Shown here: positions 222 through 19,867 of the stretch, piece by piece | Layout of the letters: each line of letters begins with the position of its first letter | Position numbering within the stretch: the stretch's first letter is position 1 | Origin: a virus | Lineage: Duplodnaviria; Caudoviricetes | IMG/VR virus record: IMGVR_UViG_3300032086_001967 | Coordinates: 1-25,001 of that record | DNA: 25,001 nucleotides | Reading direction: 5' to 3' (one strand) | The notes under the pieces: model-generated | The model's input: the letters and a program-made list of their open reading frames with translations, nothing else | Told to the model about the DNA's origin: nothing | Database searches by the model: none | Made by a program: the position numbers and the translations under genes

Positions 222-343
222 GAAAATACTCACATAAAAAAATACTAAAACTTACTCGACAACAAATAATGTTAGTTGAAGATGAATGGTATGACAAGTT
301 TAATAGAAGTTATTACAAACAAAATACGACTTTAGCAAGATAA
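218..343 (+). CDS. small hypothetical protein (41 aa, MRKYSHKKILK...)
   Basis: ATG at 218 coupled by ATGA overlap; TAA at 341-343. Confidence 0.55.
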   Translation: MRKYSHKKILKLTRQQIMLVEDEWYDKFNRSYYKQNTTLAR

Positions 344-345
344 TA
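314..345 (+). promoter_or_regulatory. putative phage early promoter, copy 1 (TACAA-N3-AAATACG-N10-GATAATA)
   Basis: TACAAacaAAATACGactttagcaaGATAATA; one of four copies with identical spacing; just upstream of ATG 357. Confidence 0.75.
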
Positions 346-851: not shown

Positions 852-1295
852 ATGACACACGAAAGTAAATATAAACAAGAACAAGAAGCACTTGAGAATG
901 CATTTGTAAGACAATTGCTTATTAAGTACAATATTAAAGAAGTAACTACGCAAAGACAAGCGATCAATGGTACAAGAGAATTTGAATTTCCTGTATCTTC
1001 GCTAGCACCTAATACAAGGTATGGTAGAGTAAAACCAGATAGCTTTCCTAAATTAAGATTAGCGTGTTTCAAAACAGGTTATGTAAGAAAACAAAACGGT
1101 TGCTACTCACCGTATCAACTAAACCCTACATATAAAAGAAAGAAAAAGTGGGTATTTTTAGAGTCAAATGGCACTGTAACTAAAACGTTTACCACTATAT
1201 CAAGAGCTAGAATATATAAAGGTCTTGCTAGATTAAACTATATGTTAGAATACTACTTAAGAAATTACAAACAAAATACGAATCCTGTCAGATAA
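852..1295 (+). CDS. hypothetical basic protein (about 147 aa)
   Basis: ORF track 789..1295; start moved to ATG 852 because 789 lies inside the tRNA. Confidence 0.7.
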   Translation: MTHESKYKQEQEALENAFVRQLLIKYNIKEVTTQRQAINGTREFEFPVSSLAPNTRYGRVKPDSFPKLRLACFKTGYVRKQNGCYSPYQLNPTYKRKKKWVFLESNGTVTKTFTTISRARIYKGLARLNYMLEYYLRNYKQNTNPVR

Positions 1296-1297
1296 TA
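1266..1297 (+). promoter_or_regulatory. putative phage early promoter, copy 2
   Basis: TACAAacaAAATACGaatcctgtcaGATAATA, just upstream of ATG 1305. Confidence 0.75.
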
Positions 1298-1521: not shown

Positions 1522-1740
1522 ATGGCAAAAATAAAACAAATGGACATAGTAGCAGAAGAAATAGCTACAGATATACTAGAAGAAATATACAAACATAGTG
1601 ATTGGCAAATCGGCCAGTTCTTACCAGAATCTTGTGAGGGCGATGAATACAATGATGCTCATAGTTACCTCGTAAAGCTGGTCGCTCGCCACATCGCTAT
1701 TAAAACAGATGTAATAACTAACCAATACTACGATGAGTGA
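1522..1740 (+). CDS. hypothetical acidic protein
   Basis: ORF track; tight packing with neighbours. Confidence 0.7.
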   Translation: MAKIKQMDIVAEEIATDILEEIYKHSDWQIGQFLPESCEGDEYNDAHSYLVKLVARHIAIKTDVITNQYYDE

Positions 1741-1975
1741 TTCAATAAAAGCATGGTATGACATGCAAGACGAAGAAAAATTAAAGACTATCGAAGAGTC
1801 TAATGAAAGAAGATATTTATGGGTACTAGACTTTGAAGAAGCCAGAGTATTCATGTATAACATTAACAGAACAGATTTAGAACATGAGCATTATGAAGAT
1901 ATAATGAAACTAAAAGGTCATAATCCAAATAATTGCGAGTGGATGATTTGCAAGTCAGATCAAATCTATAAATAG
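1733..1975 (+). CDS. hypothetical protein
   Basis: ORF track; the G of its TAG stop is the first base of the tmRNA-like RNA. Confidence 0.7.
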   Translation: MSDSIKAWYDMQDEEKLKTIEESNERRYLWVLDFEEARVFMYNINRTDLEHEHYEDIMKLKGHNPNNCEWMICKSDQIYK

Positions 1976-2047
1976 GGAGTGATAAGGTGAGCGACAACCG
2001 CGGCGAAAGCAAAGGTGTCAACGGCGGTTCGATTCCGCCCACTTCCA
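1975..2047 (+). ncRNA. tRNA-like RNA resembling an isolated tmRNA tRNA-like domain (alanine identity, no mRNA-like domain)
   Basis: Acceptor stem GGGAGTG/CACTTCC with G3.U70 and A73; T arm GGCGG-TTCGATT-CCGCC; stemless D loop ATAAGGTGAGC followed by GAC; short helix capped by GC-GAAA-GC; no anticodon loop. Confidence 0.75.
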
Positions 2048-2052
2048 CTAAA

Positions 2053-2131
2053 TACCGGCCTAACAGTAAATCGACGCCTTGGCTTCCTTAAGGTATCAGT
2101 TGTACAAAGCCAGTCGTAGTGACAGCCGGTA
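2053..2131 (+). ncRNA. putative structured RNA (interrupted long hairpin), family unknown
   Basis: Nested pairings TACCGGC/GCCGGTA, CGAC/GTCG and TGGCTT/AAGCCA in a GC-enriched intergenic gap. Confidence 0.5.
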
Positions 2132-3645: not shown

Positions 3646-4106
3646 GTACAAGAAATTTAACAATGATAGTTGATAGAGATTATGCAAGTCAAAACGAATT
3701 AGGTTTTGCTGCTAATCCATCAGTATATAGTGACAACAGCTATGTAAATATGTATTTACATCACGATGGTTACCCTGAATGGCAAGGTGTACAGTTAGCA
3801 AACTGGTGTCACGCTAATGCTAGACAAGATGGCTCTGCTATGGCTGCAAAGCTAGTACACGATATGTACTATGACAGTTGCTACTTATATGCAGACCATC
3901 AAAACATAGATCATAACTATACTTATACAATATGGGTAGGTGATGCTGATGATATATGGATTAGTTGCTGGAATCAGTATACTAGCAAATGTGTATTTGT
4001 ACTAAAACCAGAAAAGATTATATCTAAATATATGACAGATATGGAGTACACAGACTTTGCAAATAATGAAACAAGATACAAAATAAATACGGATGGATTT
4101 AGATAA
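3642..4106 (+). CDS. conserved phage hypothetical protein (YxHxDGYP motif)
   Basis: MSTR... start and YLHHDGYPEWQG motif, recalled from an uncharacterised phage family. Confidence 0.75.
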   Translation: MSTRNLTMIVDRDYASQNELGFAANPSVYSDNSYVNMYLHHDGYPEWQGVQLANWCHANARQDGSAMAAKLVHDMYYDSCYLYADHQNIDHNYTYTIWVGDADDIWISCWNQYTSKCVFVLKPEKIISKYMTDMEYTDFANNETRYKINTDGFR

Positions 4107-4108
4107 TA
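4077..4108 (+). promoter_or_regulatory. putative phage early promoter, copy 4
   Basis: TACAAaatAAATACGgatggatttaGATAATA; overlaps the end of ORF 3642 and the ATG at 4093. Confidence 0.65.
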
Positions 4109-6180: not shown

Positions 6181-6786
6181 ATGTCACAGAATAGAAATAT
6201 AAAATGGTTAAATGATAGACGCATATTATATAGGAAAGATCCTGTTAATGATGTGCCCACTATTGAAACTGAACAATATAGATACTACGAAAATGGTACG
6301 TATGAGTGTTATCACTTGTTTAATAGCAAGGCTAAAATAACTACATACAAATCATTGAAATGGCACATGCTTGTATTATATTATCTTAACGAAGATGTAG
6401 ATTTAAGACCTGTTTTTAAATTTATAGCTAACAAAGAAAATGGTTTTGTAACCTTCTTCATTAAACAGCGACTACTAGATGAAATGATAGAAGATGTATT
6501 AAAACAAGGCGGTGACCCACCGTCAAACAAGCTACGTAAAGTAGTGTTTAAAGATTATTCAGGTTTAGACTTGAGTGGTAAATTAAAAATTGTAGGTCAA
6601 CTAATAGGTAGATCTAGCATTGACAAAGATATGATATATGATACTATGTTGGATTTAAACGACATGGGTAAAAAAATAACTATCAGTCGTGTTGCTGGTT
6701 TACTTAATTGCTCTACAAGAACAATACATCGCCATATGTGTGATGATTTAAAACAAGAAAAACAAATACTAAATGAAGAAATATAA
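6181..6786 (+). CDS. DNA-binding protein with C-terminal helix-turn-helix
   Basis: KITISRVAGLLNCSTRTIHRHM HTH. Confidence 0.75.
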   Translation: MSQNRNIKWLNDRRILYRKDPVNDVPTIETEQYRYYENGTYECYHLFNSKAKITTYKSLKWHMLVLYYLNEDVDLRPVFKFIANKENGFVTFFIKQRLLDEMIEDVLKQGGDPPSNKLRKVVFKDYSGLDLSGKLKIVGQLIGRSSIDKDMIYDTMLDLNDMGKKITISRVAGLLNCSTRTIHRHMCDDLKQEKQILNEEI

Positions 6787-7543
6787 TTTAGATAATTATA
6801 TAAGGTACAAAAACGAGGTTCAAGAACTTGTTAGCAAATTGCCTGAAGTACAAAATAATGACTTCACAATATATGATGATAAGCAAATGATAACATGTTT
6901 TTTACCGCTAGTAGAGAACGTTGCAAGAAAGTTTTCAACTAGTCAACAAGCCTCAGGTGTAATGACTATACTTGATTTGATACAAGAAGGTAGCGCTGGT
7001 TTAACACTAGCTGTTGGCAAGCTTGACAGATCTTTGTTGTTAGAATCTGAAGACCAATTAAAAACATTAAAATCATTTTTCTCAAAACGTATCAAAGGTG
7101 CAATACGTAGAGCTGTAGATATTAATCGTGGTAACATGAGAATACCTGAGCATAAACTAAACGAAATACGTAAGAACTTTGGTCACAACAAGAAAATGGT
7201 TGAAATGTTTTTCAATAGTATATTTTTAAGTATTGATGAAAAGAAAACAGACCTTAATGAAGACTGGGCTGCTCAGATACCTGATAAGTCAGAGCCATAT
7301 AACGTGGGTATGTTAAATCAATATTTAAAAGGCTTACTTAAAAAACATCTAAACAATAAAGAGTACGAAGTATTACGTATGAGCTATGGTTTAGACTGTG
7401 ACAAGCATGATGCTAAGACAATAGCTAGTAAACTAGGTATACAAGGCAGCAGTGCATATGTACGTGTTTCACAGGTTAAAAAACAAGCAGTACAAAAACT
7501 TATTGATAATGTAGATTACACACAAGTGCTTGATTATCTTTAA
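6773..7543 (+). CDS. RNA polymerase sigma-70 family factor
   Basis: Region 2 LPLVENVARKF...DLIQEGSAGL; MRIP motif; region 4 LNNKEYEVLRMSYGL...IASKLGI...VRVSQ. Confidence 0.9.
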   Translation: MKKYNLDNYIRYKNEVQELVSKLPEVQNNDFTIYDDKQMITCFLPLVENVARKFSTSQQASGVMTILDLIQEGSAGLTLAVGKLDRSLLLESEDQLKTLKSFFSKRIKGAIRRAVDINRGNMRIPEHKLNEIRKNFGHNKKMVEMFFNSIFLSIDEKKTDLNEDWAAQIPDKSEPYNVGMLNQYLKGLLKKHLNNKEYEVLRMSYGLDCDKHDAKTIASKLGIQGSSAYVRVSQVKKQAVQKLIDNVDYTQVLDYL

Positions 7544-17529: not shown

Positions 17530-17860
17530 AATATGGGGTAAAACAGAAATGATACATAAAAATGGTGTCATGGAGTTTCACCGAATAGAATTTAATAAAG
17601 GATTTAAATGCTCTGAACATGAGCATAGATTTAAATGGAACGGATTTTTTGTAGAATCCGGTAAAATGCTTGTCAGGGTATGGCAAGAAGATCAAGGTCT
17701 TGTTGATGAAACAATACTTGAAGCAGGTGATTTTACTATGGTAAAACCTGGTAAGATACATCAGTTTGAAGGTGTTGAAGATGGTGTTGCTTTTGAATTA
17801 TATTGGGCTGAGTTTAATCACGATGATATAATCAGAAGAACAGCTGGTACTAAGACATGA
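17516..17860 (+). CDS. cupin, sugar isomerase-like
   Basis: K.WG, SEHEH...FFVESG, PGKIHQF cupin motifs. Confidence 0.8.
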   Translation: MKAGKIWGKTEMIHKNGVMEFHRIEFNKGFKCSEHEHRFKWNGFFVESGKMLVRVWQEDQGLVDETILEAGDFTMVKPGKIHQFEGVEDGVAFELYWAEFNHDDIIRRTAGTKT

Positions 17861-18495
17861 AAAACATAGCGGTAGTTATACCAGCAAGACTTAATAGTAC
17901 TAGACTCAAACACAAAATGTTAATGAAGTTCGATGATGAACCTCTAATACGTCTTGTGTTTGATAAAGTACGTATGATGGGATATGATACATTTGTAGCA
18001 ACAGACAGCAAGCGTATTGCTAAACTGTTTCCTATGAAATGGTGTATACAAACAGGTAAAGCCGATAACGGTACACATAGATTATCTAAACGAGTTGTAT
18101 TAGATTTAGTAAATGGATATGATTATGTATTAAACATACAAGGTGATATGCTTGATATAAATCTAGATACAATTAAACCTATAATAAAAGCATTAAACAA
18201 AAAAGATGTAGTATGTTTAACTGCATATACTAAAGGCGCTAAATCAGATGATGTTAAAGTTATACATCAAAATGGTAAAGCAATGTGGTTTACAAGATCT
18301 GACATAGGTTATGGTGATAGACACTTAGGTATATATGCTTATAAACCTTATTTGTTAAAAGCATATAGAGCTATGAAAGATAAATATAAATCAGAAAACT
18401 TAGAACAAAACAAAATATTAGGTTTATACGATATTGATGTAGTTGAAACTACATATAATGGCGTAGAAATTAACACTTATAATGATATAAAATGA
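17857..18495 (+). CDS. kdsB: CMP-Kdo synthetase (3-deoxy-manno-octulosonate cytidylyltransferase)
   Basis: IPARLNSTRL..K, GT.R, NIQGD, HLGIYAY, E.LEQ. Confidence 0.85.
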   Translation: MKNIAVVIPARLNSTRLKHKMLMKFDDEPLIRLVFDKVRMMGYDTFVATDSKRIAKLFPMKWCIQTGKADNGTHRLSKRVVLDLVNGYDYVLNIQGDMLDINLDTIKPIIKALNKKDVVCLTAYTKGAKSDDVKVIHQNGKAMWFTRSDIGYGDRHLGIYAYKPYLLKAYRAMKDKYKSENLEQNKILGLYDIDVVETTYNGVEINTYNDIK

Positions 18496-19118
18496 AATAT
18501 GCAGAAAAATACAAAGCACTACACGAAGGTGCTGAATATAAAATAAAATATCCAGACGGCGAATGGAGAGTAAAAAAAGGTAACTATGGTAATGGTGCAG
18601 GTTTTAAAACTGTACTAAAACCTGTTAAAAAGTGGGTTGATGAAAACCCTGGCACAATGTTATTAGATTATGGTTGTGGATCTGGTATGGTTTGGGATAA
18701 TAAAATGGCTATTTACAACGGTGAAAAATATACTAAACCAGGTAAACGTGTTCCTGAAAAATATGACGCCATGACACTTACACAGTTTCTTGGTGAAAAC
18801 TTACAGGGTTTTTACAGGTACGATCCTTTTCACCCTAAGTATTATATGAGACCACCAGATATTAAATTTGATTTAACAGTTGTTAATGATGTTATAGAGC
18901 ACGTGCCATTAGAAGAGCTGCCTGCATTGTTAAGAGATATAGCTGATTTAACGTGTACTTGTGGCGCAATAGTAATGTCAATACCACAAAGCCCTTCACA
19001 CGCGCATTTTATGGACGGTGAAAATATGCACTGCACGTTAATGCCAAGAGGTGAGTGGAAAAAATTATTAAGAAAATATATACCAAAACATAAAATAATA
19101 ATAAATTTTACTCCATGA
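18492..19118 (+). CDS. class I SAM-dependent methyltransferase
   Basis: LLDYGCGSG, YDP, DVIEHVP. Confidence 0.85.
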   Translation: MKYAEKYKALHEGAEYKIKYPDGEWRVKKGNYGNGAGFKTVLKPVKKWVDENPGTMLLDYGCGSGMVWDNKMAIYNGEKYTKPGKRVPEKYDAMTLTQFLGENLQGFYRYDPFHPKYYMRPPDIKFDLTVVNDVIEHVPLEELPALLRDIADLTCTCGAIVMSIPQSPSHAHFMDGENMHCTLMPRGEWKKLLRKYIPKHKIIINFTP

Positions 19119-19867
19119 AAAAACCGATATTAATAGCTGGTCCGTGTAGTCTAGAAGGTAGAATACAAGCTCATGAAATATCTAACAAATGTCAAGAGCT
19201 AGCGGACAAATATGGCTTTGACTATTATTTCAAAGCTTCATTTGACAAGGCTAATAGAACGTCTGTAAACTCTAAACGAGGTATTGGTATAGACAAAGCT
19301 ATAGATATATTTGCTGAGTTGAAAGATTTAGATAGTTGTAAGATTACAACAGATATACATGAGCCTTGGCAAGCAGATAGGTTAGCTGACGTTGTAGACA
19401 TTATACAAATACCAGCTTATTTATGTAGACAAACTGATTTATTAGTTGCTGCAGGTAATACGTTTAGAAATATTAATATTAAAAAAGGACAGTTTATAAA
19501 TGGTAGTAATATGGTGCATGCTGTTAATAAAGTTAAAAGTACAGGTAATAATAATATTATGCTAACTGAAAGAGGTAGTATGTTTGGTATGGGTGATCTT
19601 GTTGTAGATTTTAGACAGATCGTAGATATGAAAGAGTTAGGTGTACCAGTTATAATGGACTGCACCCACTCAACACAAAGACCTAATTCAGGTAGCACAA
19701 CGGCTGGTCAACCACGCTATGCTATACACATTGCAAAAGCTGCGAAAGCAGTTGGCGTTGATGGTTACTTTTTTGAAGTACACGAAAATCCTAGCGCTGC
19801 ATGGAGTGACGGGTCTAATATGATTAAGTTAGATAAATTTGAAGAAATATTAAAACAATTAGTATGA
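19115..19867 (+). CDS. kdsA: Kdo-8-phosphate synthase (metal-dependent type)
   Basis: IAGPC, KASFDKANRTS, QIPAYLCRQTDL, NIKKGQF, ERG, D.THS.Q.P. Confidence 0.95.
   Translation: MKKPILIAGPCSLEGRIQAHEISNKCQELADKYGFDYYFKASFDKANRTSVNSKRGIGIDKAIDIFAELKDLDSCKITTDIHEPWQADRLADVVDIIQIPAYLCRQTDLLVAAGNTFRNINIKKGQFINGSNMVHAVNKVKSTGNNNIMLTERGSMFGMGDLVVDFRQIVDMKELGVPVIMDCTHSTQRPNSGSTTAGQPRYAIHIAKAAKAVGVDGYFFEVHENPSAAWSDGSNMIKLDKFEEILKQLV

What the first reader, a model, noticed from the sequence alone, without database searches (positions are those of the whole stretch)
1975..2047. 73-nt 'mini-tmRNA': alanyl-tRNA-like domain with no mRNA domain, a candidate ribosome-rescue decoy
Seen: a 7-bp acceptor stem GGGAGTG/CACTTCC with G3.U70 and A73, and a perfect T arm. 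There is no D stem; the 5' segment GA-TAA-GG-TGAG-CGAC parallels the tmRNA 5' end (GA..GG..CGAC). In place of an anticodon arm, or of tmRNA's pseudoknot and tag region, there is only GACA(A)CC/GGTGTC capped by GC-GAAA-GC. Known: G3.U70 plus A73 is the AlaRS identity element, a stemless D loop is the hallmark of the SmpB-binding tmRNA TLD, and tag-less tmRNAs occur in some mitochondria. Inference: the phage RNA is alanylated and binds SmpB/EF-Tu, then either titrates SmpB to block trans-translation tagging or acts on stalled ribosomes without adding a degradation tag. I do not know of a described phage example. It starts on the last base of the upstream stop codon.
Basis: partly seen in the sequence, partly recalled or inferred. 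Interest (0 to 1): 0.88.

Follow-up and report, generated by a model that had tools for sequence, protein, structure and literature searches.

The report
Phage mini-tmRNA carrying swappable RNA module
A phage carries a conserved 73-base gene for only the tRNA-like end of the bacterial ribosome-rescue RNA (tmRNA), tipped with a small hairpin module that related phages also place in other RNA carriers; the form is already known from one mycobacteriophage, and it likely lets the phage compete with the host's rescue-and-tag system.

Summary
Real and under selection. Window 1975-2047 folds as a tmRNA tRNA-like domain (G3.U70, A73, T arm, stemless D loop, short P2 stem) with no tag frame. Close relatives keep G3.U70/A73 in 152 of 152 matches where the pattern left it free; their 47 distinct inserts (27-62 nt) keep the stem by compensatory change. 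One of 8 runs laid, a seawater metatranscriptome, holds a 75-nt contig on 1975-2049. A phage precedent exists: the 'TLD only' tmRNA of mycobacteriophage DS6A. The class is widespread in uncultured phages (about 700 pattern matches estimated, 88 of 103 distinct ones inspected fit). Corrections: 'CGAC' is not the conserved tmRNA elbow; this subfamily has a non-canonical elbow, so SmpB binding is less sure. The cap is a mobile module, also found outside such RNAs (8 of 17 matches). Best reading: an alanylated, likely SmpB-bound competitor of host tmRNA that adds no tag (0.5); main rival: a natural tRNA scaffold displaying cargo motifs (0.25). This scan noted the class, and the scaffold idea, before on other DNA.

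The parts
1975..2047 (+). TLD-only (tag-less) tmRNA gene, G1 to discriminator A73
   Evidence: conservation
1975..1981 (+). acceptor stem 5' strand with G3; G1 is also the last base of the upstream stop codon
1982..1992 (+). stemless D loop with invariant GG and G17; non-canonical elbow (GG, three bases, G)
1993..2019 (+). P2-like stem (1993-1996 with 2016-2019) and its insert; sequence free, pairing kept in relatives; no stop codon in any frame
1996..2016 (+). mobile cap module: CC/GG pairs, GCG/AAA internal loop, GC-GNRA-GC hairpin; recurs in other RNA scaffolds of related phages
2020..2022 (+). 3-nt linker AAC; middle A corresponds to E. coli tmRNA A334, an SmpB contact
2023..2039 (+). T arm
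2040..2050 (+). acceptor 3' strand with U70, discriminator A73 (2047), then CTA: CCA end would have to be completed by a host enzyme
2053..2131 (+). neighbouring, separate structured RNA module without Rfam match; not an obligatory partner
1733..1975 (+). 80-aa ORF of unknown function whose stop codon overlaps G1
1274..1296 (+). copy of a repeated bipartite motif, candidate phage promoter for the unit that holds the RNA; next copy at 2146-2168
   Evidence: 4 copies; pattern chosen by eye from this window; function inferred

Best explanation
This is a phage gene for the tRNA-like head of tmRNA without the message part; its RNA is likely cut out of a longer transcript, charged with alanine and bound by the host's SmpB and EF-Tu, and would then compete with host tmRNA for SmpB and for stalled ribosomes, where it can take over the nascent chain but has no tag to add. 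Shown: the structure, its conservation, selection of G3.U70, absence of a tag frame, absence of a phage SmpB. Inferred: RNase P cleavage at G1, 3' trimming and CCA completion, alanylation by host AlaRS, SmpB binding, ribosome entry, release by host factors (ArfB, drop-off and Pth, or further rounds of alanine addition). The P2 tip points away from the SmpB site and is used as a slot for exchangeable hairpin modules.
For: Acceptor, T arm and D loop are nearly invariant while the insert is free: 152 of 152 close-family matches (118 metagenome, 34 viral; the sets overlap) have CACTTCC-A where the pattern did not ask for it. Across the wider class acceptor pairs 4-6 vary among pairing types, and the same viral pattern gives about 700 matches with U70 (estimate) against 21 with any other base, 10 of those 21 being ARAGORN tRNAs. 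12 of 14 relatives found through the downstream protein, blind to the RNA, carry a TLD with a stem insert at this place, 5 of them with the compensatory C4-G69 pair. The A334 equivalent is kept in 93 of 95 scored members; A334 and G19 are SmpB contacts in E. coli (passages of PMC8363625). A version with the canonical elbow lies in the same kind of array in L357. No SmpB in 0 of 50 carrier records, 0 of 23 near-complete, control 10 of 14 genomes, so a partner would be the host's. Precedent: a DS6A-like molecule inhibits tmRNA, perhaps by titrating SmpB; TLD plus SmpB makes polyalanine without template in vitro. A 75-nt contig on 1975-2049 with one differing letter is in RNA run X20.
Against: The elbow is non-canonical: GG-N4-GAC in 107 of 107 and 25 of 25 cellular tmRNAs read, but GG-U-N-A-G with linker AAC here; the G19C change abolishes SmpB binding in E. 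coli, and whether G17 takes that role is unshown. One of 14 relatives has a 47-nt form with no P2 stem at all, and one has no such RNA. The published inhibition did not need charging, so inhibition alone does not explain selection for G3.U70. No release factor (0 of 20 close-family records) or PTH2 (0 of 20) is carried to finish a tag-less rescue. The cap is conserved in its own right outside TLDs, which this mechanism does not need. 7 of 8 runs laid did not cover the element in full.
Confidence: 0.5

Rival explanations
1. Natural tRNA scaffold: the TLD is mainly a carrier that gets a cargo hairpin cut out, matured and stabilised (by RNase P, CCA addition, alanylation and EF-Tu), and the working part is the exchangeable module, here the GCG/AAA loop with a GNRA hairpin, which would bind a host or phage protein. 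SmpB is not needed.
For: 47 distinct inserts of 27-62 nt. 15 of 47 share a 16-mer with a place outside any TLD in the loci held. The window's own cap gives 17 matches in 16 viral loci: 9 in TLDs (8 by script, L560 added by eye), 8 elsewhere, in several different carrier stems. L357 holds the inserts of L004 and L045 in other carriers. Non-canonical elbow.
Against: A scaffold does not obviously need G3.U70, which is selected. Many members of the wider class have only a 4-5 nt loop on P2 and so no cargo. The A334 equivalent and 3-nt linker are kept. No ligand for any module is known. The two roles can coexist.
Confidence: 0.25
2. Pure SmpB sink: the RNA binds SmpB and lowers host trans-translation but never accepts a peptide on the ribosome; alanine only stabilises it.
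For: A similar molecule inhibits tmRNA whether or not chargeable (citing Mao et al. 2009, which was not held). No phage release factor in the close family.
Against: Strong selection of G3.U70 across the class; charged TLD plus SmpB is active on ribosomes in vitro.
Confidence: 0.12
3. Anticodon-less tRNA mimic used as a decoy for host defence proteins or other factors that recognise the tRNA elbow or aminoacyl-tRNA with EF-Tu.
For: Stripped 47-nt acceptor-plus-T-arm form at the same place in L534; position among small early-type ORFs and next to tRNA-Met in many relatives.
Against: No target identified; does not explain the tmRNA-type stemless D loop, P2 stem and 3-nt linker kept in most members.
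Confidence: 0.08
4. Not a working RNA of its own: decayed tRNA-Ala or tmRNA, an attachment-site remnant, or one piece of a two-piece tmRNA whose message is supplied by the neighbouring element.
For: Below the Rfam gathering score; an 80-nt structured element follows 6 nt downstream.
Against: Compensatory change in P2: 185 of 188 cells pair, 81 of 84 after collapsing to 21 types, shuffle mean 38.9, maximum 57 in 10,000. Both ends are present in standard order. No integrase among 41 window ORFs scanned. The neighbour is in only 4 of 25 close-family records and a 1-nt indel in L354 breaks any shared frame. A full-length tmRNA was found in 1 of 50 carrier records, none of the close family.
Confidence: 0.03

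Closest known systems
'TLD only' tmRNA of Mycobacterium phage DS6A (tmRNA Website tmID 11587; Phage__Mycobacterium.9; JN698994 28478-28557 = L227:8479-8558)
   Same: Phage gene in standard order, G3.U70 and A73, T arm, stemless D loop, P2 stem closed by a small hairpin, no tag frame, CTA after the discriminator; 80 nt against 73.
   Different: DS6A has GG-N4-GAC before P2; this subfamily has GG-U-N-A-G and linker AAC. Different host group (best cultured protein matches are Flavobacteriaceae phages). Here the cap is a module shared with other RNA carriers and the gene sits in a shuffled RNA array.
CDS-less organellar tmRNAs (jakobid and oomycete mitochondria, RF02544; about 65-bp Mallomonadaceae plastid genes)
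   Same: tRNA-like domain without a tag reading frame.
   Different: They are the organelle's only tmRNA, mostly permuted, with a nucleus-encoded SmpB; this one would work beside a full host tmRNA.
Standard bacterial tmRNA (RF00023)
   Same: Acceptor, T arm, stemless D loop, P2, 3-nt linker; best Rfam match.
   Different: No pseudoknots, no resume codon or tag, 73 nt against about 345-400 nt, changed elbow, score below gathering.
Engineered TLD fragments and the laboratory tRNA-scaffold method
   Same: TLD fragment with SmpB supports polyalanine synthesis in vitro. Inserting a cargo RNA into a tRNA stem to make it stable is a known laboratory method (recalled, no call).
   Different: Here natural, phage-encoded, with modules exchanged between carriers.

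Membership tests
TLD-only / CDS-less tmRNA (DS6A type) | Complete acceptor stem with G3.U70 and A73 plus T arm, standard gene order | tested here: met
   152 of 152 relatives
TLD-only / CDS-less tmRNA (DS6A type) | Stemless D loop and P2 stem closed by a short cap, no tag frame | tested here: met
   no stop codon in the 28-nt middle
TLD-only / CDS-less tmRNA (DS6A type) | SmpB-binding elbow nucleotides | tested here: inconclusive
   A334 equivalent kept; G17 invariant but one base closer to the GG than in cellular tmRNAs
TLD-only / CDS-less tmRNA (DS6A type) | Alanylation, SmpB binding, inhibition of host tmRNA | not testable with these tools
   needs biochemistry; precedent only
TLD-only / CDS-less tmRNA (DS6A type) | Exists as a discrete processed RNA | tested here: inconclusive
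   75-nt contig on 1975-2049 in 1 of 8 runs laid; contigs cannot show ends, strand or level
Standard tmRNA (RF00023) | mRNA-like domain with resume codon, tag and stop; pseudoknot ring | tested here: not met
Standard tmRNA (RF00023) | Canonical elbow GG-N4-GAC with GGAC before the T stem | tested here: not met
Standard tmRNA (RF00023) | Score at or above gathering (47 bits) | tested here: not met
   36 bits
Permuted two-piece tmRNA | 3' acceptor piece precedes the 5' piece; coding piece in the same gene | tested here: not met
   standard order; neighbour element not a constant partner and without a kept frame
tRNA-Ala | D stem and anticodon stem-loop with NGC anticodon | tested here: not met
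   ARAGORN no call; middle varies freely, 27-62 nt
attP remnant of ssrA | 3' fragment only, beside an integrase | tested here: not met
   both ends present; no integrase among 41 ORFs scanned; window is only part of the genome

The most novel reading that the evidence does not exclude
These phages use an alanylated tmRNA head as a natural plug-in carrier: a fixed tRNA-like body that host enzymes mature and deliver, with an exchangeable functional RNA module on its P2 arm. The modules (here a GCG/AAA internal loop capped by a GNRA hairpin) move between several carrier RNAs in a shuffled array and act as aptamers or decoys for host proteins, possibly brought to stalled ribosomes through SmpB.
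Probability: 0.3. Interest if true: 0.85.

Novelty: new variant of a known kind. Interest (0 to 1): 0.6.

Why it matters
The 2025 tmRNA database lists 9 standard-form genes without a coding part among 97,179 sequences and names one phage case; pattern scans here point to several hundred in uncultured phages, missed by ARAGORN and often below the Rfam cut-off. If they compete with host tmRNA, ribosome rescue is a common battleground between phage and host. They also give small, bacterial, testable models for an open question: what a tmRNA without a message does (raised for mitochondria). The exchangeable caps suggest a modular phage RNA toolkit whose parts are not yet described in the papers searched.

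Tried and rejected
BLAST of the element against cultured phages found only T-arm fragments, 0 of 15 records covering 80%; DS6A's TLD found only DS6A at that coverage, 3 of 147 records. The one scan of cellular genomes used the GGGG-type pattern; 107 of 120 loci returned hold a full ARAGORN tmRNA, and only L313 looked TLD-only to me; the GGGA type was not scanned there. SmpB (0 of 50), RF-1 domain (2 of 38, both large phages) and PTH2 (1 of 38) are not companions; Pth, ArfA and CCA enzyme were not searched. The neighbour element as a trans message was rejected. The stop-codon overlap is not a family trait: the four bases before G1 vary widely. Sigma-70 and terminator scans gave nothing above chance; one mis-spaced promoter pattern found nothing. 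A mis-registered structure string was replaced by the correct one. Seven of 8 runs laid gave no full cover of the element, which shows nothing about expression. Paper searches found no paper that describes the class as widespread; one search was swamped by an unrelated acronym. Supplements of PMC10690425 gave no hit in 6 files, but files 1, 2 and 4 were not searched and may hold this family as an unnamed candidate; the supplement of PMC11915505 gave no hit for three terms and its sequence database was not seen. Mao et al. 2009 was not held. No covariance model was built; no protein fold or complex was run.

Full report
Setting. The window is a 25,001-base virus record, held alone. Of 41 ORFs scanned, those with matches are phage replication and nucleotide genes: ligase, primase/helicase, thymidylate synthase, ribonucleotide reductase, a sigma-factor-like gene. 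The best cultured matches are Cellulophaga phage phi10:1 (42% on primase/helicase) and Flavobacterium phages (59% on the reductase), so the host is likely a flavobacterium (inference). The element lies among small unknown ORFs upstream of the replication genes.

Observation. Confirmed at 1975-2047. The acceptor stem has G3.U70 and A73, the T arm is perfect, the D region is unpaired, and a short stem replaces the message. Rfam's tmRNA model spans it with the middle skipped, 36 bits against a cut-off of 47, E 3.2e-11; ARAGORN finds only tRNA-Met at 765-837. The 28-nt middle has no stop codon in any frame. CCA is not encoded.

Close family. A loose viral scan gave 61 loci; 25 share nearly identical ends with unrelated middles, the rest are tRNA-Tyr genes, other mini forms or unrelated. 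Scans that left the 3' acceptor strand free gave 24 and 10 viral loci and 118 metagenome loci (the sets overlap, 52 distinct upstream flanks). All 152 matches read CACTTCC-A, none encodes CCA. There are 47 distinct inserts of 27-62 nt; the first four stem positions pair in 185 of 188 cells, and in 81 of 84 after collapsing to 21 types, against a shuffle mean of 38.9 and maximum of 57 in 10,000. The register skipped one unpaired C in 18 of 47 inserts, a rule that slightly favours pairing. A test blind to the RNA, through the downstream protein, gave 14 loci: 7 with this type, 5 with a C4-G69 type, 1 with a 47-nt acceptor-plus-T-arm form lacking P2, and 1 with a different element.

Wider class. 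The GGGG-type pattern returned 120 viral loci of about 700 estimated from 11 of 64 parts. Of 103 distinct sequences, 88 have 7 of 7 acceptor pairs and one stem between D loop and T arm; 14 of the rest have imperfect acceptors and several are 3' ends of full tmRNAs. Over all viral sets 109 of 114 pass a stricter shape test against 27.0 expected from shuffled middles, and 106 of 112 passing viral sequences overlap no ARAGORN call. G3.U70 was built into that pattern, so I ran the control: with any base but U at 70 the whole collection holds 21 matches, 10 of them ARAGORN tRNAs. In cellular genomes the same pattern mostly hits full tmRNAs, 107 of 120 loci.

The elbow. In E. coli, SmpB Trp122 sits in a pocket of A15, U17 and A334, and G19C blocks binding (passages of PMC8363625). 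Cellular tmRNAs read here have GG-N4-GAC before P2 in 107 of 107 (mostly actinobacterial) and 25 of 25 called among 28 loci from a second phylum sample, with GGAC before the T stem in 107 of 107 and 23 of 25 (two mis-parsed by my script). In the phage class the A334 equivalent is kept in 93 of 95 scored members (17 of 112 could not be scored) and a G at the G19 position in 66 of 95 (the numbering of positions 20, 333 and 335 is recalled). The window's subfamily has GG-U-N-A-G, an optional C, and linker AAC. So SmpB binding is plausible but less sure than for DS6A. A canonical-elbow mini form lies beside the same array modules in L357, which suggests the two are interchangeable (inference).

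Partners. No SmpB in 50 carrier records, 23 of them at least 90% complete, with the control ringing in 10 of 14 genomes. One full-length tmRNA in 50 records, in a 340-kb phage. RF-1 domain in 2 of 38 and PTH2 in 1 of 38 records, none of the 20 close-family ones. The RNA would rely on host enzymes.

The cap and the array. In relatives the gene lies in a shuffled row of small structured modules and tRNA-Met at a syntenic place. Fifteen of 47 inserts share a 16-mer with a place outside any TLD in the loci held. The window's own cap gives 17 matches in 16 viral loci; the script classed 8 as TLD, I add L560 by eye, and 8 lie in other carriers with different closing stems. The pattern fixed the cap's letters, so its invariance is not itself a result; its presence in different carriers is. 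The element at 2053-2131 is a separate RNA: 19 viral loci, 4 of 25 close-family records, all 7 closing pairs with change on both sides and 100% of 224 cells paired, 0 of 500 shuffles as high, no Rfam match.

Expression. Eight runs were laid, all chosen because they hold words of this stretch. Run X20, a seawater metatranscriptome by its record, has a 75-nt contig on 1975-2049 with one differing letter, and little cover of the flanking ORFs. The tool warns that contigs show no ends, strand or level, DNA may be present, and module borders are natural branch points of an assembly graph; this is presence in an RNA library, not proof of processing. The other seven runs did not cover the element in full; six of the eight cover the neighbour.

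What is known. [quoted passage not shown] PMC4131195 (passages) lists DS6A as 'TLD only' and says a similar molecule, chargeable or not, strongly inhibits tmRNA, perhaps by titrating SmpB. PMC3929946 (passages) reports template-free polyalanine synthesis by TLD plus SmpB. PMC8012679 (passages) gives the general pathway; PMC9004378 (passages) counts full and two-piece phage tmRNAs; PMC10690425 (passages and 6 supplement files) does not name this class in what I saw. Mao et al. 2009 and Shimizu and Ueda 2006 were not read. I fetched DS6A and found its 80-nt TLD with the same layout. Ten searches found no paper calling the class widespread; subscription journals are not covered.

Mechanism. Most likely the RNA is matured like a tRNA, alanylated, bound by host SmpB and EF-Tu, and competes with host tmRNA, taking over stalled chains without a coded tag (0.5). 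All steps after the structure are inferred. Repeated alanine addition could itself make a degradation signal (recalled from the RqcH system), so 'no tag' need not mean 'no proteolysis'. The scaffold reading (0.25) is compatible and may hold as well. A pure sink (0.12), a defence decoy (0.08) and a dead remnant (0.03) are less likely. In this genome cleavage at G1 would cut the last base off the upstream stop codon and leave a nonstop mRNA; the bases before G1 vary in relatives, so this looks incidental.

Verdict. A new variant of a known kind: DS6A-type TLD-only tmRNA, with a changed elbow and an exchangeable cap. The scan's earlier notes report the class on other DNA at least ten times and the scaffold idea once; I had the DS6A link and wrote the scaffold idea before seeing the notes that state them, though a note on 'swappable inserts' came. 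They are leads, not support. Interest 0.6.

Noticed in passing
window 2053-2131 (+): Second structured RNA module with a covarying 7-bp closing stem and an almost invariant core; 19 viral loci, no Rfam match, covered by contigs in 6 of 8 runs laid.
   Followed up: partly
L182-L205 within 400 nt of the mini-tmRNA; L531, L532: At least three more recurring non-coding carrier modules, shuffled in order and content between related 60-70 kb phages; one has variable inserts and a possible pseudoknot; no Rfam match at gathering.
   Followed up: partly
L534 about 105 nt upstream of position 2501 (+): 47-nt form with only acceptor stem (G3.U70), a short loop and T arm, in the slot of the mini-tmRNA.
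   Followed up: no
L539:2255-2330 (+): A different T-arm-bearing element without the alanine mark in the same slot.
   Followed up: no
window 322-344, 1274-1296, 2146-2168, 4085-4107 (+): Four copies of a bipartite motif, candidate phage promoter; a sigma-factor-like gene lies at 6773-7543.
   Followed up: partly
L313 / L383:1501-1586 (-): TLD-only tmRNA on a contig of a Poribacteria MAG that also has a full tmRNA elsewhere; it lies beside an ORF that looks like cas1 by eye.
   Followed up: no
G048 (L122) and G028 (L029): Large phages that carry a mini form together with a full or permuted tmRNA and an RF-1-domain gene; G048 also has PTH2.
   Followed up: no
L010, L021, L039, L048, L058 at 1501-1579: A recurring tRNA-like element with G3-C70 that ARAGORN does not call.
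   Followed up: no
window 17857-19867 (+): Cytidylyltransferase, methyltransferase and DAHP/KDO8P-synthase-family genes in a row, suggesting phage-borne sugar modification.
   Followed up: no
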